Made by a program: the position numbers and the translations under genes. Below, piece after piece: positions 5,012 through 62,102 of a stretch of DNA of 64,000 nucleotides. Where the stretch lies: positions 5,769-69,768 of the forward strand of contig JBDTFR010000022.1 in the NCBI GenBank assembly GCA_039937835.1. Reading direction: 5' to 3'. The first letter of the stretch is position 1. The number at the start of each line of letters is the position of its first letter. A model generated the notes under the pieces. It saw nothing but the letters and a program-made list of their open reading frames with translations. It did not search any database and was not told the DNA's origin. The DNA is from Bacteroidia bacterium. Lineage in GTDB: Bacteria; Bacteroidota; Bacteroidia; 2-12-FULL-35-15.

Positions 5012-5447
5012 GGAAGTAATAAATTATTGTTATTTCCCGCGTTATTCCAGAAAACATCTTTTCCTCTCTTCATTTCATTGATCAATTCGAAAACAAGACG
5101 GAGTTGTTTGCTCCTAAAATAATTTGTGAACTAACAGAACAAGTGTATCTCAAAGTGAATAAATTTCGGAAAACAATTATTGAAGGTATTTTGCTTACGG
5201 GGTCAATACAAATATGATGCGCTCTGATTCGAATGCTTAGCTTCACCAAACATTATAGGTGATATTACAACAAAGTGCTAATTGAAGAAAGCTTTTAATT
5301 AGGAAAACTGACGTTGATTGTACTTTTAAAAGTAATTTAAACAACAAACTAGTTAATAAGGAATAAAAAAAATTGCTCGCTTAAAAAATTGTCATATTTT
5401 TACTTTCTATTAAGTCAAAAGGTTACAAAAAACAAAAAATATTTCAA

Positions 5448-12808: not shown

Positions 12809-13615
12809 ATGCCTTTCGCAGATTTTAGAAAAACAAAAATTAATTATACCGATTCTGGAAAAGGACGAGTAATTGTATTGTTGCATGGCTTTTTGGGTTC
12901 ACATGAAATATGGGCTGATTTTGCGAAAAAGTTATCAAAAAAATATCGAGTAATTATTATCGATCTATTAGGGCATGGAGCAACATCTACTATTGGGTAT
13001 TATCATAGTATGGAATTATTGGCGCAAAGTGTAAAAGCCGTGCTTGATAAAATAGGGGTAAGACGATATGTACTTGCTGGGCACTCCATGGGCGGATATG
13101 TTACACTTGCGTTCGCGGAATTATTTCCTGATAACATAAGTGGCTTGTGTTTATTTAATTCTACAGCCTATTCAGATACTGAAGAAAAAAAGAAAGATAG
13201 GGAACGAGCCGTTCGATTGGTTAAAAAAGGACATAAAAATTACCTATCAGAAGTTTTAGCTTCTTTATTTGCCGAAGAAAACAAAATAAAGTTTAAGTTC
13301 TGCATAGAAAAAGCAAAACGTATTGCATCTCAAATTTCGAGGCAAAGTATCATAAATAATTTAGAGGGGATGAAAGAGCGAAAAAGCCGTGATCTTATTT
13401 TAAGATTTGCCGACTATCCAATACTTTTTATTATCGGCAAAAAAGATACAGTAATCAATTATCAAACTATGTATCCTCAAATAGGCATATGTAAATTCCC
13501 TACAGTATTACTATTGGAAAATTCAGCACACATGAGTTTTTATGAATCACCAGAAGAAACTTTAAAGGAGTTAGAATTATTTTTAAGTAGGTGCTTTAAA
13601 AAGCTGTATTTGTGA
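12809..13615 (+). CDS. Alpha/beta-hydrolase fold protein
   Basis: HGFLGS oxyanion region and the GHSMGG nucleophile elbow. 268 aa. Confidence 0.75.
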   Translation: MPFADFRKTKINYTDSGKGRVIVLLHGFLGSHEIWADFAKKLSKKYRVIIIDLLGHGATSTIGYYHSMELLAQSVKAVLDKIGVRRYVLAGHSMGGYVTLAFAELFPDNISGLCLFNSTAYSDTEEKKKDRERAVRLVKKGHKNYLSEVLASLFAEENKIKFKFCIEKAKRIASQISRQSIINNLEGMKERKSRDLILRFADYPILFIIGKKDTVINYQTMYPQIGICKFPTVLLLENSAHMSFYESPEETLKELELFLSRCFKKLYL

Positions 13616-13695
13616 AATAAATGTTAATAAAAATTAATGAAAAGCGACTACAAATTTTATTAGCTTTGCAGCCTTAAAAGAGAATTTAAAAAAAA

Positions 13696-13763
13696 GTTTG
13701 AAAATTTGCTCATTAACCTAACAACATCCCCATGTGTCAATTAAATGCTGCAAATTCTCAAAC
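13696..13763. repeat. Repeat copy 1 hairpin (core 13714-13744)
   Basis: Arms GTTTGAAAATTTGC / GCAAATTCTCAAAC. Confidence 0.7.
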
Positions 13764-13936
13764 CTTTTTTATTTATTAAAGAAACAAACGTTTCTTTAGT
13801 ATTTCGATAGCAATATTAATACATAAATTGAGGTGTAAAAACCGCATTTAGTAAATGGCAAGGTATCTTTATTGAATGGTTGGAATTTAAACTTAAGTGG
13901 TAAAAACGGATAAGAAATGAACTAACTTAAAAAAAA

Positions 13937-14006
13937 GATCGGAGATTTTATATATTAACCTAACAACATCCCCATGTGCTAATTAATTATTTTAAAATCT
14001 CCGACC
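13937..14006. repeat. Repeat copy 2 hairpin (core 13955-13986)
   Basis: Arms GATCGGAGATTTTA / TAAAATCTCCGACC. The arm sequences differ from copy 1 but stay complementary. Confidence 0.7.
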
Positions 14007-14185
14007 TTTTCTAAACTAAAGAACAAAAAACCCTTTTTATTATTTCTACTGCAATATTAAGCTAAAAGTGAATAGATTAAATCGATCAATTAGTAGAAGG
14101 TAAGAAAATTTTATTGAGCGGTAGAAAACAAATGGTAAACGGTTTTGATGTAACTAAAAAAACGGAACTTCGTTTATAAAAAAAA

Positions 14186-14255
14186 GGTTCGAAAATTTAC
14201 TCATTAACCTAACAACATCCCCATGTGCCAATTAATTTTTGTAAACCTTCGACCC
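14186..14255. repeat. Repeat copy 3 hairpin (core 14204-14235)
   Basis: Arms GGTTCGAAAATTTAC / GTAAACCTTCGACCC, partly complementary. Confidence 0.65.
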
Positions 14256-14392
14256 TTTTTTCTTTTAAAGGAAGGTTGCCCTTCCCTTGTTTCGACAACA
14301 ATGATACGCAAGAAAGTGTTGTACAAATACCGCAAATGAGCCGATGGTGAGAGAATGTTATTAAACGGCAGTAAATTACCAGTAAGCGGCTT

Positions 14393-15142
14393 TTAAATAA
14401 GCGATAATTTTTCTAAAAATTCATTTTTATTTCTTCGAGATACCTCTACTTTAGAATCATCTGACATAACAACGTAACCACCTTCGCCTTTAATATACTT
14501 TTTTGCATGCACTAAATTTATTAGATGAGAGCGATGAACCCGAAAAAAATTATCTTCCGCAAACATTTGCTCATATTCCCCAAGAGTGCGAGAAGCAACT
14601 ATTTTTTTACCCGTTGTGAGGATGAAGAAAGTATAGTTACCATCTGAATCACAACGAATAATATCGGAAAGATTTATAAAAATTAATCCTTCCCCATCAG
14701 GAATCCCTACTTTTTTTAATTTATTTTCTGGACGAACGTTCGAAAGCAAGGCTTTAAACTGTTCATCAAAACCATTGCCTTTATTTAATTTTTTTTCTAG
14801 GCGGTTAACTGCCTCTACAAGTTCTTCAGGGTCTATTGGTTTTAATAGGTAATCAATAGCACTGAATTTAATGGCTTTAATGGCATAATGGTCATAAGCT
14901 GTAGTAAAAATAATACTAAACGTAATATCTTTAAATTTCTCTAATAAGTCAAATGCATTACCGTTGGGCATTTCTATATCTAGAAAAATTAAATCGGGCT
15001 TATGATTGGTAATGGCTTCAAAACCAGTTAACATAGAATCAGCTTTTGCTACAATTTGCAATTGTTTGCAATTTTTTTCAATCATTTTAGACAATGATTC
15101 TCTTGCTCCAGATTCATCATCTATAATTATGGTCTTTATCAT
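14393..15142 (-). CDS. LytTR-family two-component response regulator (REC + LytTR DNA-binding domain)
   Basis: N-terminal receiver (IIIDDE, phospho-acceptor Asp in LIFLDIEMP) and a C-terminal LytTR domain (FFRVHRSHLINL). Confidence 0.9.
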   Translation of the reverse strand: MIKTIIIDDESGARESLSKMIEKNCKQLQIVAKADSMLTGFEAITNHKPDLIFLDIEMPNGNAFDLLEKFKDITFSIIFTTAYDHYAIKAIKFSAIDYLLKPIDPEELVEAVNRLEKKLNKGNGFDEQFKALLSNVRPENKLKKVGIPDGEGLIFINLSDIIRCDSDGNYTFFILTTGKKIVASRTLGEYEQMFAEDNFFRVHRSHLINLVHAKKYIKGEGGYVVMSDDSKVEVSRRNKNEFLEKLSLI

Positions 15143-15156
15143 CTATTTTTTCAAAT

Positions 15157-18120
15157 TTAATTATCATCTACTTCAATCGGAATAACCAGCTGTACTTTTG
15201 TTCCAGCGGTGTTTCCGTTTATATATATATCTGTAATTTCTACATACAAGTTACTATTTAGGCTAGAGTTTAAAACATCCAAACGTTCTTGTGTGATGCT
15301 CATCCCCATGGATTTATGTTGTTGAACTCTATTTTTCTTAAATTCTTCTGCTTTTTTTCGCCCAATTCCATTGTCTTCAATAATACACAAAATTGTATCA
15401 CCTTGACGGTGTAAAGTTATGGTAATTTTACCAGATTCTTTTTTAGGTAGCAGACCGTGAATGATAGCGTTTTCAACATAAGGCTGAATGAGCATTGAAG
15501 GAATTCGGTCGTAATTTTGGTCAACCGTAGCGTCAACTATTATGGAGTATTGAAACTTATTTTCGAAACGCATAACTTCTAACTCCAAATATAGATTTAA
15601 AGCATTTATTTCTTCTGCTACTGGTATCATTTGCTGTTTGGAGTTATCCATTATTCTTCGCATTAGTTTTGCAAATTTTGATAGGTATTTTAGCGCCGCA
15701 TTGGTATCATTATTAGAAATATAATGCTGAATGGAGCTTAATGTATTAAAAATAAAATGAGGGTTCATTTGAGCTCGTAAGGCTTGCGACTCAATGTTAG
15801 CAATTTTTTTATTAAGTTCGGTTTTATTTTTTTCCCGTATTTTTATCTGTCGGATGCGGTATAAAGTAGAAAAGATAGCCGCAATTAAGATAAATGAAGC
15901 CGAGGAGATAATAAATAGCCATGTTTTCCAAAAAGGTTGATCAATGGTAAAACTATATGTTGCAGGCACTTTATTCCAAATACCCTCGTTATTTGAGCTA
16001 ATAACATTGAATGTATAGGAACCTGGAGGCAAATTAAAATATGTTACAGATCGTTCTTTAGACGGTAAAGACCAGTCTTTCTGAAATCCCTCCAAAATGT
16101 ATGAGTAAAGCACTTTATCAGGGTTTGTTAAGCAAATTCCGGAATATGCAAAAGTGATATTATTATCATTGTATTTTAAATGTGCATTATTTAGTAAAAG
16201 AGTATCTGTATACGACAAGAAAAAATCAGTGATACTTATCCTCGCTTCCGTTTTGTTTTCAATATATCCTTTCGGGTCGTATTTTATTAGCCCTTTTACA
16301 GTAGTAAACCAAATGGAGCCATCTTTTTCTAAAAAATGCCCTTCATTGCACTCTACCCCTAAAAATCCTTCTTGTTTCCCAAAAGGAATTATTTTTTTTT
16401 GACCAATTTTTTTAAATTCAGCTAAATTCAATTTATTAACTCCTTGATTGGTGCCAATCCACATTTCATTTTGTGTTTTACCAAAAGTTAAAGAGTAAAT
16501 TAAATCAGAACTCATGCCATCTGCTTGAGTAAAGCGGGTTGGTTTAATTTTTGAATTGTAGGGGTTCATCATCCATAATCCATCCAATGTTCCAAAATAT
16601 AAATTGCCTTCACTATCAACTAATGCTTGTAAAAAGGAGTCACTTTTTAGACCTAACTTTTCACTGCATTCAACAAACGTATTGCCATCGTATTTTATAA
16701 GTCCGCCTAAATAAGTACCAATCCATAATACACCTGTTGTATCTTCAACAAAACAAGCAGTAATAAAATTTTTAGATTTAGTTTTAAAAGTATAAGAGGT
16801 AAAATGATGGCCATCGTACTTGTAGATACATTCTTTGCCTCCAATCCAAATATTATTTTTAGAATCTTTATAAAAGCAATTTATAGACTTGGTAAAAACG
16901 TTTGTAGTGTCTACTTTCTTTATAAACTTTTTACGATTAAAAATGGTTAAGCCTTGGTCGGTAGCAAGCCACAATGAATCTGGAGAGTATTCATAAATAT
17001 TTCTTATTATTTTTGCTTTTAAGCCATTGTTGCTGCCATAAAATACAAATGTATCCTTCACAAATTTATATAATAAGCCTTCTTGTGAGCCTGCCCAAAG
17101 TGTATCTTTAGAATCACGCATTACGGAAGTCATGAAACCATAGCTTAGCCCATCCTTTGGCCCATAACTAATAAAGGGAGTTCCCCTGTATTTGAATAAA
17201 CCAGCTTTAGTGCCTAACCATATATTGTTTTCAAAATCTTCAAACAGGCAGTTAATGATATTGCTGTTAGGACCAAGTTTTATAGGGTATTTTTGAAAAC
17301 GATTATCATAATAACTTATTAACCCAGTAGAGGTGCCTAACCATACTCTGTTTTTGTAGTCTGTAATTACGGTTCGTATATCTACATCCATTAAGCCTTG
17401 CTGTTGTGCTAGCGTAGTAAATTTATTGTTTGCATATTTACATAGACCAGCCGCCGTTGCGATCCAAATATTTTGTTGACGATCTTGTGTTATTCCATTG
17501 ATGCTATTATTAGGTAAGCCGTCTGCAAGCAGATAGTTAGTAAAGCTGTTTCCATCGAATACGGTTATTCCCATATCGGTGCCAATCCATATTTTTCCAC
17601 TAACATCTACATAAAGACATTTAACATTATTGGAAATCATACCATCTTTTGTAGAAAAATTAATAAACGTACCACCAGTTAATTTACTTATACCTTTATT
17701 AGTTCCAAACCAAATATTCCCTCCTTTATCTTTTATACAGGCAGAAATGCTGTCACTTATAAGTCCATTCTTAGAAGTATAGTCTGTAAATTTTTTACCG
17801 TCGAATTTGTTTACTCCATTGATAGTACCTATCCATAAATTGCCTTTATTGTCTTGATTAATGCACGTTACGGAATGATTCAACAAACCATCTTCTGGAC
17901 TATAGTTTGTAAAAGAATGGCCATCGAATTTACTTAGTCCACCGTAACCCCCACTCCATAAATTCCCTTTATCATCTTGAAAAATGGTAGAAACGTATAC
18001 AAACGGTAAACCATCTTCTGCCGAATAATTTCGAAAATAATAGGATTGTGCTATAATTTTTTGAAACAATAATAGCTGTAAACCAATAAAAAGAAATATG
18101 AATTTATTTTTAATTTGCAT
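15157..18120 (-). CDS. Sensor histidine kinase: periplasmic two-component-regulator beta-propeller repeats + Y_Y_Y domain + TM + LytS/YehU-type His_kinase + HATPase
   Basis: 987 aa. Signal peptide, many repeats of the type GLxxxxVxxIxQDxxGNLWIGT, one TM helix, the MNPHFIFNTLSSI histidine-kinase box (PF06580 type that pairs with LytTR regulators), and an ATPase domain. Confidence 0.85.
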   Translation of the reverse strand: MQIKNKFIFLFIGLQLLLFQKIIAQSYYFRNYSAEDGLPFVYVSTIFQDDKGNLWSGGYGGLSKFDGHSFTNYSPEDGLLNHSVTCINQDNKGNLWIGTINGVNKFDGKKFTDYTSKNGLISDSISACIKDKGGNIWFGTNKGISKLTGGTFINFSTKDGMISNNVKCLYVDVSGKIWIGTDMGITVFDGNSFTNYLLADGLPNNSINGITQDRQQNIWIATAAGLCKYANNKFTTLAQQQGLMDVDIRTVITDYKNRVWLGTSTGLISYYDNRFQKYPIKLGPNSNIINCLFEDFENNIWLGTKAGLFKYRGTPFISYGPKDGLSYGFMTSVMRDSKDTLWAGSQEGLLYKFVKDTFVFYGSNNGLKAKIIRNIYEYSPDSLWLATDQGLTIFNRKKFIKKVDTTNVFTKSINCFYKDSKNNIWIGGKECIYKYDGHHFTSYTFKTKSKNFITACFVEDTTGVLWIGTYLGGLIKYDGNTFVECSEKLGLKSDSFLQALVDSEGNLYFGTLDGLWMMNPYNSKIKPTRFTQADGMSSDLIYSLTFGKTQNEMWIGTNQGVNKLNLAEFKKIGQKKIIPFGKQEGFLGVECNEGHFLEKDGSIWFTTVKGLIKYDPKGYIENKTEARISITDFFLSYTDTLLLNNAHLKYNDNNITFAYSGICLTNPDKVLYSYILEGFQKDWSLPSKERSVTYFNLPPGSYTFNVISSNNEGIWNKVPATYSFTIDQPFWKTWLFIISSASFILIAAIFSTLYRIRQIKIREKNKTELNKKIANIESQALRAQMNPHFIFNTLSSIQHYISNNDTNAALKYLSKFAKLMRRIMDNSKQQMIPVAEEINALNLYLELEVMRFENKFQYSIIVDATVDQNYDRIPSMLIQPYVENAIIHGLLPKKESGKITITLHRQGDTILCIIEDNGIGRKKAEEFKKNRVQQHKSMGMSITQERLDVLNSSLNSNLYVEITDIYINGNTAGTKVQLVIPIEVDDN

Positions 18121-19204
18121 CTAACAGATCGCCGTTTCCATTTTTATTTTTAAAAAAAGCATCCCAACCCTGAGCTACCAGTGGAAAGGAGGTTCCAGCA
18201 TTTGTAATTAAATTTACTCCATCTTTTATATTTGTAATATGTCCAATAACCGATATATCTGGATTTGCTTTTATTTTTGAAAAATCAGAAGCGTCAATCG
18301 TAAAAAGTAATTCATAGTCTTCTCCCCCGCTTAATGCACATAGGGTGGGGTCAAGGTTAAATTCGCGAGCCATGTTATAAGTAGAGGGGTCAATTGGAAT
18401 CTTTTCTTCATATAAACTACAACCTACTTCAGATTGTGTGGTCAAATGTAAAATTTCAGAAGCTAAACCATCTGATATATCAATCATCGAAGTAGGTTTT
18501 ACTTCTAATAATTTTAATAAAGGAGGAATGTCTTTACGCGCTTCTGGTTTTAATTGACGTTCTAGTATATAATCATTTCCTCCTAAGTCGGGCTGTACGT
18601 TTGGCGTTTCAATATATATTTGTTTTTCTCGCTCTAATAATTGTAACCCTACGTAAGCACCCCCCAAATCACCAGTAACACAAAGCAAGTTTCCTTCTTT
18701 AGCACCATTGCGATAAACAATATCTTTTTCATCTGCTTCACCAATTGCCGTAATGCTAATAACCAAACCCGATTTGGAAGTGGTGGTGTCTCCTCCAACA
18801 ATATCCACCTGATGTTTTTCACAGGCTAGTAACATTCCTGAATAGAGTTCTTCCATTGCTTCCACCGAAAAACGGTTAGATAAAGCAAAAGAAACCGTTA
18901 TTTGTTTAGGGATTGCATTCATAGCGTAAATATCTGATAAATTGACTGATACAGCCTTATATCCCAAATGTTTCAGAGGTACGTATGTTAAATCAAAGTG
19001 TACTCCTTCTACTAACATATCGGTAGTTATAACGGTTTGTTTGCCTTTATAGTCAATTACCGCAGCATCATCACCCACTCCTTTTAGGCTACTTTCATTT
19101 TTTAATTTTATAAATTGAGTCAGGTGTTTTATCAAACCAAACTCTCCTAAACTACTTAATTCTGTACGTGTTGTATTTTCTAGCATAAACGAATTTTGTT
19201 GCAA
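18110..19204 (-). CDS. thiL: Thiamine-monophosphate kinase
   Basis: ELSSLGEFGLI N-terminal block, AIR-synthase-like fold (GDDAAV, VGGDTT). Overlaps the kinase gene by 11 bp. Confidence 0.8.
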   Translation of the reverse strand: MQQNSFMLENTTRTELSSLGEFGLIKHLTQFIKLKNESSLKGVGDDAAVIDYKGKQTVITTDMLVEGVHFDLTYVPLKHLGYKAVSVNLSDIYAMNAIPKQITVSFALSNRFSVEAMEELYSGMLLACEKHQVDIVGGDTTTSKSGLVISITAIGEADEKDIVYRNGAKEGNLLCVTGDLGGAYVGLQLLEREKQIYIETPNVQPDLGGNDYILERQLKPEARKDIPPLLKLLEVKPTSMIDISDGLASEILHLTTQSEVGCSLYEEKIPIDPSTYNMAREFNLDPTLCALSGGEDYELLFTIDASDFSKIKANPDISVIGHITNIKDGVNLITNAGTSFPLVAQGWDAFFKNKNGNGDLLDAN

Positions 19205-59997: not shown

Positions 59998-60756
59998 ACG
60001 TAATAAACCAAATTAGGACTGATAGAAGGGCAGCCGATAACAGCACCTATAAAAAATTGGCGGTTCAGTGGTTAAATGAAGTTTTGTTCTTCGTATCAAG
60101 TTTAGTGGTGGCAGACAGTTTATTGCTTCGAAATCGCCAACTTCTTATAGCTGCCAAAACGTGTGTGTCTTGAATCAGCAACGCATCTGAGTTGTTGAAT
60201 GCTATTTAAAAGATGGAAGACAAAAATGTGAAGGATAAATAATGTAGTGGAGCTCAAGCGAAATGAGTGGCCGTGCAACCAAACAAATTTGAGTGGCCTT
60301 CCAAAGACGGCTGTCAAGAGCAGTCTTTAAACCACCTGATGCTGCATTAAGAGGAAACTATTTTTGTGGTGAACGATTAGGAAAAACAGGAACACGTATT
60401 CCTGTAGGTGCATATATAGGAGCTGAATAAAATGAACTACCTATTAAGCCTCGTAAGCGCAATAGACAGAGCCGAAAACAGATAGCTACGTTTGTATTTG
60501 TGATAAGGGTGTAATGGACGACTTGATTGCTGATTACATGGCTCTCGGGGTAAAGGTAGCAGGAACTATATACAGGCTTTTAAATGGAACAAGAGAAATC
60601 GATACTGCGCTATTAAATTGTAAAAAGGAGCTAGCCATACAATGGATGTATGAAGTATCGGTGGCAGACCAGCTTGTAGTAGTGATAAAGTTACTGAAAG
60701 GTAATGGAGCGAAGAGGCTGGCTAGTTTAACTTTATAAAATGCACAACCGAAAGGG

Positions 60757-61980: not shown

Positions 61981-62010
61981 CTAATAAATACATTCGTGAT
62001 TGAACTAGAA

Positions 62011-62044
62011 GAGCCGTGTGAAGGGAGACTTTCAAGCACGGTTC
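62011..62044 (+). ncRNA. Group II intron catalytic domain V
   Basis: 34-nt hairpin matching the DV consensus GAGCCGUAUGCGAUGAAAGUCGCACGUACGGUUC, including the AGC triad and the G-U pair. Confidence 0.85.
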
Positions 62045-62102
62045 CGTGGGAACGGAAGGGTGAAACTCCCTTGCGTGACCCGATTAGGGAGCAATATGTG
62101 AT

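What the first reader, a model, noticed from the sequence alone, without database searches (positions are those of the whole stretch)
13688..14390. Triplicated ~245-bp tandem element with an invariant 31-nt core inside a hairpin whose stems covary
Three tandem units between convergent genes (alpha/beta hydrolase and the LytTR regulator). Each unit reads A-run, 14-15-nt arm, TTAACCTAACAACATCCCCATGTG(T/C)(C/T)AATTAA, complementary arm, T-run. The arm sequences differ between copies (GTTTGAAAATTTGC, GATCGGAGATTTTA, GGTTCGAAAATTTAC), but each pairs with its own partner. That is compensatory change and implies selection on the structure, while the enclosed core stays identical. Each is followed by a second, copy-specific small hairpin and a diverged ~160-bp tail that keeps short shared blocks (GCAATATTAA, GGTAAAAACGG-like). 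With an A-run and a T-run, each hairpin looks like an intrinsic terminator on either strand. On the minus strand every core encodes the same mini-ORF ATGGGGATGTTGTTAGGTTAA (MGMLLG*). Candidate explanations are a tandem family of sRNAs, a MITE/REP-like element, or a leader-peptide attenuator array. It is not a CRISPR array: units are about 245 bp and there are no short spacers. It is one of the least explained stretches in the window.
Basis: seen in the sequence. Interest (0 to 1): 0.7.

Follow-up and report, generated by a model that had tools for sequence, protein, structure and literature searches.

The report
Three tandem regulator-linked small RNA genes
The triplicated element is most likely three copies of a previously undescribed small RNA gene on the minus strand, each apparently switched on by the two-component regulator encoded just upstream, and each carrying a 19-base hairpin tip that is unchanged across more than 20 related uncultured Bacteroidia sequences.

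Summary
Three units (window 13688-14392) share an exact 24-nt core (0 expected by chance).

The functional strand is the minus strand, the same strand as the upstream histidine kinase and LytTR response-regulator genes. Read on that strand, each unit has:
- three phased boxes (ACCGyTTA-like, 21-nt spacing, close to the E. coli BtsR/YehT site)
- a Bacteroidetes-type -33/-7 promoter
- a small variable 5' hairpin
- a long hairpin whose outer stem covaries and whose tip (GGCACAUGGGGAUGUUGUU) is invariant
- a U8 terminator

The same hairpin lies directly downstream of the orthologous regulator gene in every related locus with enough flank (about 20, regulator 79-94% identical). In most relatives it leads into a small membrane-protein gene, which the window lacks. 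The same tip also caps hairpins that flank type IX secretion cargo genes in some relatives.

Rfam 15 has no match, and two literature searches found nothing comparable.

Best reading: regulator-dependent RNAs of about 117-119 nt. Their structured tip is probably a recognition site for an unknown partner; how it acts is unproven. MITE/REP, CRISPR and leader-peptide readings are rejected.

The parts
15157..18120 (-). Sensor histidine kinase (987 aa) with Reg_prop beta-propeller repeats, a Y_Y_Y domain, a LytS-type His_kinase domain and HATPase_c. Its start overlaps the end of thiL (18110-19204).
   Evidence: Pfam; ORFs; thiL assignment.
14393..15142 (-). LytTR-family response regulator (249 aa). 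Its stop codon lies 4 nt before box 1 of unit 3.
   Evidence: Pfam Response_reg + LytTR. The best NCBIfam hit, below its cut-off, is BtsR. Orthologs at 79-94% identity lie upstream of the same hairpin in relatives.
14339..14390 (-). Unit 3 regulator boxes: CCGCTTACT (14389-14381), CCGTTTAAT (14368-14360) and CCATCGGCT (14347-14339), spaced 21 nt apart.
   Evidence: The boxes are in register with conserved boxes in 20 related loci.
14299..14327 (-). Unit 3 core promoter: -33-like TTTG (14327-14324) and -7 box TATCATTG (14306-14299).
   Evidence: Consensus TAnnTTTG at -12 to -5, from PMC9723704.
14178..14294 (-). Unit 3 predicted RNA (about 117 nt): 5' hairpin 14288-14267, long hairpin 14263-14178, invariant tip 14229-14211, U8 at 14185-14178. 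The 5' end is inferred from the promoter; the 3' end from the U-run.
   Evidence: Fold of -42.9 kcal/mol, z -6.8; covariance model 79.9 bits on minus against 28.7 on plus.
14156..14176 (-). Small extra hairpin (AAACG..CGTTT) followed by T7, between unit 3 and unit 2. It is a possible back-up terminator.
   Evidence: Read directly from the sequence.
14092..14143 (-). Unit 2 regulator boxes: CCGTTTACC (14142-14134), CCGCTCAAT (14121-14113) and CCTTCTACT (14100-14092).
14052..14059 (-). Unit 2 -7 box, TAATATTG.
13929..14047 (-). Unit 2 predicted RNA (about 119 nt): 5' hairpin 14045-14018, long hairpin 14012-13931, tip 13980-13962 (AGCACAUGGGGAUGUUGUU), U8 at 13936-13929.
   Evidence: Fold of -33.5 kcal/mol, z -5.6; covariance model 70.3 bits on minus against 19.2 on plus.
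13850..13901 (-). Unit 1 regulator boxes: ACCACTTA (13901-13894), CCATTCAAT (13879-13871) and CCATTTACT (13858-13850).
13811..13818 (-). Unit 1 -7 box, TAATATTG.
13688..13806 (-). Unit 1 predicted RNA (about 119 nt): 5' hairpin 13798-13777, long hairpin 13770-13689, tip 13738-13720 (GACACAUGGGGAUGUUGUU), U8 at 13695-13688. Read on the + strand, the same hairpin could also terminate the convergent hydrolase gene.
   Evidence: Fold of -39.8 kcal/mol, z -7.8; covariance model 71.2 bits on minus against 20.3 on plus.

Best explanation
The array is three diverged tandem copies of a small RNA gene transcribed from the minus strand.

Proposed sequence of events:
1. Inferred: the phosphorylated LytTR response regulator encoded immediately upstream binds three direct repeats spaced 21 bp apart. 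Their consensus is (A/G)CC(G/A)yTTA, at about -95, -74 and -53.
2. Inferred: this activates a slightly suboptimal Bacteroidetes sigma-A promoter (-33 TTTG-like, -7 TAnnATTG).
3. Inferred from the predicted structure and U-runs: transcription gives an RNA of about 117-119 nt. It has a variable 5' stem-loop, an A-rich linker and a long terminator hairpin ending in U8.
4. The working part is the hairpin tip, a 7-bp mini-helix with one bulged U and a GGGG tetraloop (GGCACAU-GGGG-AUGUUGUU). Its sequence is frozen while everything around it changes.

The RNA descends from the 5' leader of a small membrane-protein gene that follows it in most relatives. In this lineage the protein gene is gone, the hairpin has acquired a strong U-tract, and the gene has been triplicated.

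Most likely mode of action (inference, roughly 0.3 on its own): the tip is a sequence-specific docking site for an unknown trans-acting factor, most simply an RNA-binding protein. The same factor would read the identical tip on hairpins in the untranslated and intergenic regions of type IX secretion cargo mRNAs in related genomes. The regulator-induced RNAs would then compete for that factor, and three gene copies would raise the dose.
For: Repeat and strand:
- The core occurs three times exactly, with 0 expected by chance.
- The minus strand folds better (-40/-33/-43 against -30/-20/-25 kcal/mol).
- The covariance model scores 70-80 bits on the minus strand against 19-29 bits on the plus strand, with no other hit in the window.
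- Constant G-U pairs at alignment columns 41-59 and 42-58, and U-G variants at columns 39-63 and 40-62, make sense only on this strand.

Linkage to the regulator:
- The upstream genes are a Reg_prop/Y_Y_Y/His_kinase sensor and a LytTR regulator.
- In about 20 related loci (six fetched through regulator orthologs, the rest through the exact 17-mer), every hairpin with enough upstream flank has the orthologous regulator (79-94% identity) directly upstream on the same strand.

Promoter:
- An ungapped stack of 23 promoters, anchored on the -7 box, shows three conserved boxes spaced 21 nt apart, a -33-like block and CGTAATATTGT.
- Within the window, this box arrangement occurs only in the three units.
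- The E. coli YehT/BtsR site oligo reads GCCGCTCA-N12-ACCGCTTA-N13-ACCACTCA. LytTR sites in general are repeats of 9-11 nt separated by 11-13 nt (PMC4847170).
- The regulator's best NCBIfam hit, below its cut-off, is BtsR.

RNA structure:
- In the outer helix, 8 of 12 pairs show changes on both sides.
- 26 doubly changed cells were observed against 7.5 in shuffles; 0 of 500 shuffles reached the observed value.

Selection after duplication:
- The units are 67-69% identical overall, while the 35-nt core region is 91-100% identical.

Nature of the tip:
- Only GGGG and one bulged U are predicted to be unpaired.
- Both strands of the mini-helix are invariant rather than covarying. This points to sequence-specific readout of a structured element.

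Shared tip elsewhere:
- The identical 19-mer caps different hairpins placed behind perfect TAnnTTTG boxes, 2-30 nt upstream of type IX secretion cargo genes. It also appears just after their stop codons in relatives.
Against: - There are no expression data. The 5' ends are only predicted.
- Regulator binding to the boxes is inferred by analogy.
- In most relatives the hairpin is followed by a weak U-tract and a small ORF. The ancestral element may therefore act only in cis, and the window copies could be leftovers.
- No candidate binding protein was identified.
- Each RNA carries only one copy of the motif, unlike classic protein-sponge RNAs.
- The window contains no cargo-type hairpin, so the proposed competition cannot be seen in this 64 kb.
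- Most metagenome members were retrieved with the exact 17-mer, so their core identity follows from the search. Only the six lineages found through protein synteny, plus the window, test invariance independently.
Confidence: 0.65

Rival explanations
1. These are base-pairing sibling small RNAs. The three RNAs would be regulator-induced trans-acting RNAs of the LhrC/OmrAB/Qrr type. The conserved tip would be a seed that pairs with mRNAs elsewhere in the genome, for example through the GGGG loop with a C-rich site or, after the mini-helix opens, through UGUUGUU.
For: - The genes are multicopy and tandem, each with its own promoter and terminator and a shared invariant region. This is the classic sibling small-RNA layout (LhrC: PMC4132741).
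- In relatives, an invariant GGCAACA element at the start of the downstream small ORF could pair with the core's UGUUGUU, using two G-U pairs.
Against: - Only 4-5 nt of the core are predicted to be accessible.
- Complementary 9-mers in the window are not enriched: 11 found against 20 +/- 6 expected. No convincing complementary site was seen in about 200 kb of related loci.
- The cargo-gene hairpins carry the same sequence as the RNA, not the complementary one.
Confidence: 0.2
2. The units are orphaned cis-leader remnants that now serve only as terminators. The hairpin would be a cis-acting 5'-leader element (attenuator, or stability or translation element) for the small membrane-protein gene. 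After that gene was lost, the window copies would persist as bidirectional terminators between convergent genes and have no trans function.
For: - In 19 of 20 related loci the hairpin is followed within 80-190 nt by the conserved small ORF, with no obvious promoter of its own.
- The window hairpins have an A-run and a U-run, and they sit between convergent genes.
Against: - A terminator needs no particular loop sequence. Yet the 35-nt core region is 91-100% identical in three copies whose remaining parts are 51-88% identical.
- Each copy also keeps the three boxes and the -7 box.
- Triplication of a whole promoter-plus-RNA unit is hard to explain by a need for termination alone.
Confidence: 0.1
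3. The array is a DNA-level or mobile element (MITE/REP-like, or a recombination or protein-binding site), or an array of leader-peptide (MGMLLG) attenuators.
For: Palindromic units with a conserved centre superficially resemble REP or MITE elements. A 6-codon ORF sits in every window core.
Against: - There is no other copy in the 64 kb.
- The position next to the regulator gene is syntenic in about 20 lineages.
- G-U pairs and model scores are specific to one strand.
- No transposase, terminal repeat or target-site duplication was seen.
- The mini-ORF's stop position and length change in relatives, while synonymous positions stay frozen.
- No gene follows the units in the window.
Confidence: 0.03

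Closest known systems
Listeria monocytogenes LhrC1-5 (LisRK-dependent multicopy small RNA; lhrC1-4 in tandem)
   Same: Several sibling small RNA genes lie side by side, each with its own promoter and terminator. They are induced through a two-component response regulator and share conserved motifs in stem-loops (PMC4132741; the tandem arrangement is from my own knowledge).
   Different: - LisR is an OmpR-type regulator, not a LytTR type.
- LhrC acts through accessible C-rich loops that pair with ribosome-binding sites. Here the conserved part is a closed mini-helix with a GGGG loop, and no targets are known.
- The phylum is different, and there is no sequence similarity.
Staphylococcus aureus AgrA (LytTR) driving the P3 promoter and RNAIII
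   Same: A LytTR response regulator binds phased direct repeats upstream of a regulatory RNA gene that sits next to its own two-component operon. The general LytTR site architecture is given in PMC4847170; the agr details are from my own knowledge.
   Different: - RNAIII is about 514 nt, is transcribed divergently, encodes delta-haemolysin and is a single copy.
- No AgrB/AgrD-type peptide system is present here.
- The sensor here is a periplasmic beta-propeller kinase.
E. coli BtsS/BtsR (YehU/YehT) acting on the yjiY (btsT) promoter
   Same: The half-site and phasing are nearly the same. The yjiY promoter has GCCGCTCA-N12-ACCGCTTA-N13-ACCACTCA; this array has ACCGyTTA / ACCGtTAA / GCCAyTTA spaced 21 nt apart. 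The window regulator's best NCBIfam hit is BtsR.
   Different: - That hit is far below the BtsR cut-off (134.6 against 246 bits), so the regulator is not an ortholog.
- The BtsR target is a transporter gene, not an RNA.
- The BtsS sensor domain is unrelated.
GacS/GacA driving RsmX/Y/Z, and BarA/UvrY driving CsrB/C (protein-sponge RNAs)
   Same: This comparison concerns mechanism only. In those systems, two-component-induced and often multicopy RNAs display the same hairpin-loop motif that is found in the 5' untranslated regions of regulated mRNAs, and they compete for the factor that binds it.
   Different: - No CsrA/RsmA homolog is known or was tested here.
- There is one motif per RNA rather than 5-20.
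- The motif is GGGG in a tetraloop, not A(N)GGA.
- The competition itself is hypothetical.
Flavobacterium psychrophilum Rfp18
   Same: It is a Bacteroidetes small RNA linked to the expression of secreted (type IX secretion) proteases, acting in an intergenic region of tandem cargo genes (PMC9723704).
   Different: - The Rfp18 sequence shows no resemblance.
- Rfp18 is predicted to pair with its targets. Here the RNA and the cargo-gene hairpins carry the same sequence, not complementary ones.

Membership tests
Any Rfam 15 family | A covariance-model match at or near the family's gathering score | tested here: not met
   - The whole window at gathering thresholds gives only two group II intron hits.
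- The region at E<=10 gives only weak hits, mostly to microRNA-precursor and sRNA models, all far below their gathering scores.
- Seven related loci at E<=0.1 give nothing.
Intrinsic (Rho-independent) terminator | A stable stem-loop followed directly by a U-tract | tested here: met
   All three long hairpins end in U8. The simple scanner missed them because it allows loops of only 3-8 nt. In most relatives the U-tract is weak.
LytTR-regulator-dependent promoter | Two or more direct repeats of about 8-11 nt separated by 11-13 nt, upstream of the core promoter | tested here: met
   Three boxes spaced 21 nt apart, conserved in register in 23 promoters. The definition comes from PMC4847170.
LytTR-regulator-dependent promoter | A cognate LytTR regulator is present and linked | tested here: met
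   The regulator gene ends 4 nt before box 1. The linkage is conserved in relatives.
LytTR-regulator-dependent promoter | Demonstrated regulator binding and activation | not testable with these tools
   This needs gel-shift or footprinting assays and reporter assays.
Bacteroidetes sigma-A promoter | A -7 box TAnnTTTG and a -33 TTTG at the right spacing | tested here: inconclusive
   - The units have TAATATTG or TATCATTG, with A instead of T at position 5.
- They also have a TTTG/TTTAC block about 20 nt upstream.
- The consensus is taken from PMC9723704.
- A near-consensus box fits an activator-dependent promoter, but no transcription start site data exist.
Sibling (multicopy) regulator-dependent small RNAs (LhrC/OmrAB/Qrr kind) | Two or more paralogous RNA genes, each with its own promoter and terminator, sharing a conserved functional region | tested here: met
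Sibling (multicopy) regulator-dependent small RNAs (LhrC/OmrAB/Qrr kind) | Base-pairing targets complementary to the conserved region | tested here: inconclusive
   No enrichment in the window or in about 200 kb of related loci. The complete genome is not available.
Csr/Rsm-type protein-sponge RNA | Multiple GGA-loop motifs per RNA and a CsrA/RsmA protein in the genome | tested here: not met
   There is one GGGG-loop motif per RNA. The presence of CsrA could not be tested. Only the logic of competition is borrowed, not family membership.
MITE / REP element | Many dispersed copies, terminal inverted repeats, target-site duplications | tested here: not met
   Only the three adjacent copies exist in 64 kb. 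The position is fixed and syntenic in relatives.
CRISPR array | Short (about 25-40 nt) identical repeats separated by unique spacers of similar length | tested here: not met
   The units are 242-249 nt long and contain promoters.
Leader-peptide attenuator | A conserved short ORF with regulatory codons, alternative hairpins and a regulated downstream gene | tested here: not met
   - The mini-ORF's length is not conserved: MGMLLG* in the window, longer reading frames in relatives.
- Conservation is at the nucleotide level and includes bases upstream of the ATG.
- No gene follows the units in the window.
Rfp18 (Flavobacterium small RNA) | Sequence or structure similarity to Rfp18 | tested here: not met
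   The Rfp18 sequence from the supplement of PMC9723704 shares neither the core nor the architecture.

The most novel reading that the evidence does not exclude
An uncharacterised post-transcriptional circuit may exist in a phylum generally thought to lack Hfq, ProQ and CsrA. In it, a LytTR two-component system would induce decoy RNAs. Their invariant GGGG-tipped stem-loop would mimic the identical stem-loops that flank type IX secretion cargo mRNAs and that sit in the leader of a small membrane-protein gene. The decoys would titrate an undiscovered sequence-specific RNA-binding factor, making this a functional analogue of Gac/Rsm in Bacteroidota, with gene triplication as dosage tuning.
Probability: 0.2. 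Interest if true: 0.8.

Novelty: new member of a known kind. Interest (0 to 1): 0.6.

Why it matters
Few regulatory RNAs of Bacteroidota are understood, and the phylum is generally thought to lack the usual RNA chaperones. Three features make this candidate useful:

- **A predicted input.** The adjacent beta-propeller kinase and LytTR regulator, acting through BtsR-like boxes, are the likely switch.
- **A defined functional module.** It is a 19-nt stem-loop that stays unchanged while the rest of the RNA diverges beyond alignment.
- **A possible link to secreted-protein genes.** The same module is found on hairpins flanking type IX secretion cargo genes in related genomes.

Together these give a concrete bait for finding the partner that reads the stem-loop. 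The locus also shows how a 5' leader can become a free-standing, amplified small RNA. If it turns out to be only a terminator relic, it is still a clean example of a conserved LytTR regulon promoter in uncultured Bacteroidia.

Tried and rejected
1. **Genome-collection scan.** I scanned with ATGGGGATGTTGTTAGGT. That pattern extended into a part of the core (AGGT) that differs in relatives.
2. **Metagenome scan.** The 17-mer CACATGGGGATGTTGTT gave 105 hits. About 22 are genuine; the rest are chance matches in coding regions or rRNA.
3. **Rfam.** No match in the window or in relatives.
4. **Target search by complementarity.** No enrichment in the window or in related loci.
5. **Small membrane ORF and the 516-aa neighbour gene of relatives.** Neither is present in the window. 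Neither has a Pfam domain. A homology search with the small ORF found only 9 close relatives, so it gave no route to more distant lineages.
6. **Rfp18.** The sequence is unrelated.
7. **Literature.** Two full-text searches (LytTR, Bacteroidetes, small RNA, two-component; and type IX secretion, sRNA, LytTR) found nothing relevant.
8. **Kraxenberger et al. 2012 (YehT motif).** The paper is not held. The site was taken instead from the oligo sequence in PMC4847170.
9. **L090/L120.** The core occurs there without flanking stems, and I judged it a chance match.
10. **Self-pairing of the tip with a downstream CAUCCC.** This is seen in two cargo loci but is not conserved (sequences).
11. **CsrA-like site.** The tip resembles RUACARGGAUGU (recalled from memory), but it has two extra G residues and no CsrA is known in this group.
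Full report
**1. Observation.**
- The region 13688-14392 holds three units with the exact core TTAACCTAACAACATCCCCATGTG at 13713, 13955 and 14204 on the + strand. No other match exists in the 64 kb even with 3 mismatches, and none is expected by chance.
- The arms around the core differ between units, but each pairs with its own partner.
- The units lie between a convergent alpha/beta hydrolase gene (12809-13615, +) and a LytTR response-regulator gene (14393-15142, -).
- Overall the units are only 67-69% identical, while the 35-nt core region is 91-100% identical.

**2. Strand and anatomy.**
- As RNA, the minus strand folds better than the plus strand: -39.8, -33.5 and -42.9 against -29.7, -20.3 and -25.5 kcal/mol.
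- A covariance model built from 23 family members scores the window units at 70-80 bits on the minus strand and 19-29 bits on the plus strand. It finds nothing else in the window.
- Several helix positions are constant G-U pairs or U-A/U-G variants. These would be mismatches on the other strand.
- Read on the minus strand, each unit runs: three short boxes, a promoter, a small variable stem-loop, an A-rich linker, a long hairpin and U8.
- From the position of the -7 box (-12 to -5 in flavobacteria, PMC9723704), the RNAs should start near 14294, 14047 and 13806. They should end in the U-runs at 14178-14185, 13929-13936 and 13688-13695, giving about 117-119 nt. These ends are inferred, not measured.

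**3. The promoter looks LytTR-dependent.**
- The genes upstream on the same strand are thiL, a 987-aa sensor kinase (Reg_prop beta-propeller, Y_Y_Y, LytS-type His_kinase) and a 249-aa Response_reg + LytTR regulator.
- The regulator's stop codon is 4 nt from box 1 of unit 3.
- I stacked 23 promoters without gaps on the -7 box (20 related loci plus the three window units). The stack shows conserved blocks at fixed positions:
  - ACCGyTTA at -82, relative to the start of the -7 box
  - ACCGtTAAATAA at -61
  - GCCAyTTACTCATT at -41
  - a GGGTtTACTT block at the -33 position
  - CGTAATATTGT
- The three boxes are direct repeats spaced 21 nt apart. This matches the general LytTR architecture of 9-11-nt repeats separated by 11-13 nt (PMC4847170).
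- The E. coli YehT/BtsR site printed in that paper is GCCGCTCA-N12-ACCGCTTA-N13-ACCACTCA, which has almost the same half-site and phasing. BtsR is also the window regulator's best NCBIfam hit, though well below the cut-off.
- Within the window, the box arrangement occurs only in the three units.
- Regulator binding is inferred, not shown.

**4. Comparative evidence.**
- The regulator has many orthologs at 80-94% identity in uncultured Bacteroidia.
- In six lineages fetched through the protein alone (L011, L012, L017, L022, L023, L026), the stretch just downstream of the regulator gene, on the same strand, contains GGCACATGGGGATGTTGTT unchanged inside a long hairpin. The hairpin's arms and the whole 5' part have diverged.
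- A metagenome scan with the 17-mer added about 16 more such loci among roughly 80 chance hits.
- Wherever enough flank is present, the orthologous regulator (79-94% identity) and kinase (54-82% identity) lie directly upstream.
- On the 23-sequence alignment, 8 of the 12 outer-helix pairs have changes on both sides. There are 26 doubly changed cells against 7.5 in shuffles, and none of 500 shuffles reaches the observed values for paired cells, doubly changed cells or covariation score.
- The inner helix and the tip never vary, apart from U-A/U-G wobble changes in the inner helix and an A for G at the two tip positions in window units 1 and 2. The tip is under sequence constraint, not merely structural constraint.
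- Rfam 15 has no matching family in the window or in relatives. Two literature searches found nothing comparable. The flavobacterial small RNA Rfp18 is unrelated in sequence.

**5. What the relatives add.**
- In 19 of 20 related loci, a conserved small membrane protein gene of 41-63 aa starts 80-190 nt after the hairpin. There the U-tract is weak and no separate promoter is evident. The ancestral transcription unit is therefore probably regulator-box promoter, then leader with hairpin, then small membrane protein.
- The window and its closest relative L011 (regulator 94% identical, one unit) lack that gene and have U7-U8 after the hairpin. The window has three units, each as far from the others as from the L011 unit.
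- In a subset of relatives, the same 19-mer (with variants GAAACAUGGGGAUGUUGUU and GGCACAUAGGGAUGUUGUU) caps a different covarying hairpin about 2.3 kb further on. That hairpin sits about 15 nt behind a perfect TAnnTTTG box and 2-30 nt before type IX secretion cargo genes.
- It appears again just after their stop codons, and it fills the roughly 80-nt spacer between tandem cargo genes.
- The window has no such copy.

**6. How it most likely works.**
- Well supported in silico: these are RNA genes on the minus strand, under purifying selection on the hairpin tip. Each has a promoter built like a LytTR target, next to a LytTR two-component system.
- Inferred: the phosphorylated regulator activates all three promoters and yields three RNAs of about 120 nt.
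- The step after that is open.
- In the predicted ensembles, only the GGGG tetraloop and one bulged U are unpaired.
- Both strands of the mini-helix are frozen rather than covarying.
- The identical element, not its complement, occurs on mRNA hairpins in relatives.
- No complementary sites are enriched.
- Together this favours a structured docking site for a trans-acting factor, with the induced RNAs competing with mRNA or leader hairpins for it. I put this at about 0.3.
- A base-pairing seed is at about 0.2.
- A relic that now only terminates transcription is at about 0.1. The preserved boxes and core in all three copies argue against it.
- DNA-level, mobile-element and leader-peptide readings are effectively excluded, for four reasons:
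  - the position is syntenic;
  - the pairing is strand-specific;
  - the mini-ORF is not conserved;
  - no gene follows the units in the window.

**7. Comparison with known systems.**
- In layout, the array is closest to regulator-dependent sibling small RNAs such as Listeria LhrC1-4 (PMC4132741).
- In its regulator class, it is closest to AgrA-P3-RNAIII.
- In box sequence, it is closest to E. coli BtsR-yjiY.
- The proposed competition would work like Gac/Rsm or Csr. Membership of that family is not claimed, because there is one motif per RNA, no GGA loop and no known CsrA.
- It is not a member of any Rfam family.

**8. Verdict.**
- The feature is real and is best filed as a new small RNA family: a new member of the known kind "two-component-regulated multicopy small RNAs".
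- One feature is unexplained and interesting: an invariant stem-loop shared with the hairpins that flank secretion cargo genes.
- The main weaknesses are the absence of expression data, the unknown partner of the tip, and the fact that the organisms are uncultured.
- Interest is 0.6.

Noticed in passing
window 60291-60409 and 62009-62084 (+): Rfam hits to group II intron domains (group-II-D1D4-2 at 68.6 bits; Intron_gpII at 58.3 bits). A group II intron sits near the right end of the window.
   Followed up: no
L012 6157-6290; L023 5166-5336; L069 5078-5248 (-); 19 of 20 related loci: A conserved small membrane protein of 41-63 aa (..MN(K/R)K..H.YHEEGIGTVTILLA.ATVAIIFYSIY..) starts 80-190 nt downstream of the regulator-linked hairpin. 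It has no Pfam domain. It is absent from the window and from L011. It may be a small feedback protein of the two-component system.
   Followed up: partly
L022 about 5280-5335; L023 about 5165-5215; and equivalent positions in other loci: An invariant AUGGCAACA ... GCCAUGAAC element lies just upstream of the small ORF. Its reading frame relative to the MN(K/R)K start is broken in L044 and L047. It is therefore conserved as RNA or as an upstream ORF. GGCAACA could pair with the core's UGUUGUU.
   Followed up: partly
L070 651-724 and 3661-3739; L126 1257-1336 and 4259-4338; L022 7477-7551; L023 7352-7426; L026 7546-7619; L069 2973-3055 (-): Hairpins with the same 19-nt tip but different arms lie behind perfect TAnnTTTG boxes. 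They flank type IX secretion cargo genes (LRR/DUF7619/Por_Secre_tail, PKD, CHU_C), both before the start codon and just after the stop codon.
   Followed up: partly
L069 3450-3100 (- strand reading); L070 455-600: A motif like TTTGACATGTATATAATTGG is repeated two or three times upstream of the cargo-gene promoter, next to a divergent conserved gene of about 516 aa with no Pfam domain. It may be an operator for an unknown regulator.
   Followed up: no
L022 4990-5140; L026 5047-5196: The long 5' domain of the RNA in these lineages contains a 46-50-aa ORF with a signal-peptide-like start and a shared C-terminus (VTTGWIF.DTGNC..TVS). The frame is interrupted in L023, where two local hairpins show compensatory changes instead. 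It is either a dual-function region or a spurious ORF.
   Followed up: partly
window 14156-14176 (-): A small extra hairpin (AAACG..CGTTT) followed by T7 lies between the unit 3 terminator and the unit 2 boxes.
   Followed up: no
window 18110-19204 (-): thiL (thiamine-phosphate kinase, TIGR01379, 311.8 bits) overlaps the start of the sensor kinase gene by 11 nt. The order AIRS-family (thiL-like) gene, kinase, regulator is conserved in relatives.
   Followed up: partly
L010 6819-6881: The only public contig that encodes the identical regulator protein (Logan SRR26386580) ends inside unit 3. The break is probably an assembly artefact caused by the repeated core.
   Followed up: no
L090 7422-7444 (-); L120 435-455: The 17-mer core also occurs without flanking arms, just after a GC-rich hairpin in an unrelated intergenic region. 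I judged it a chance match.
   Followed up: partly
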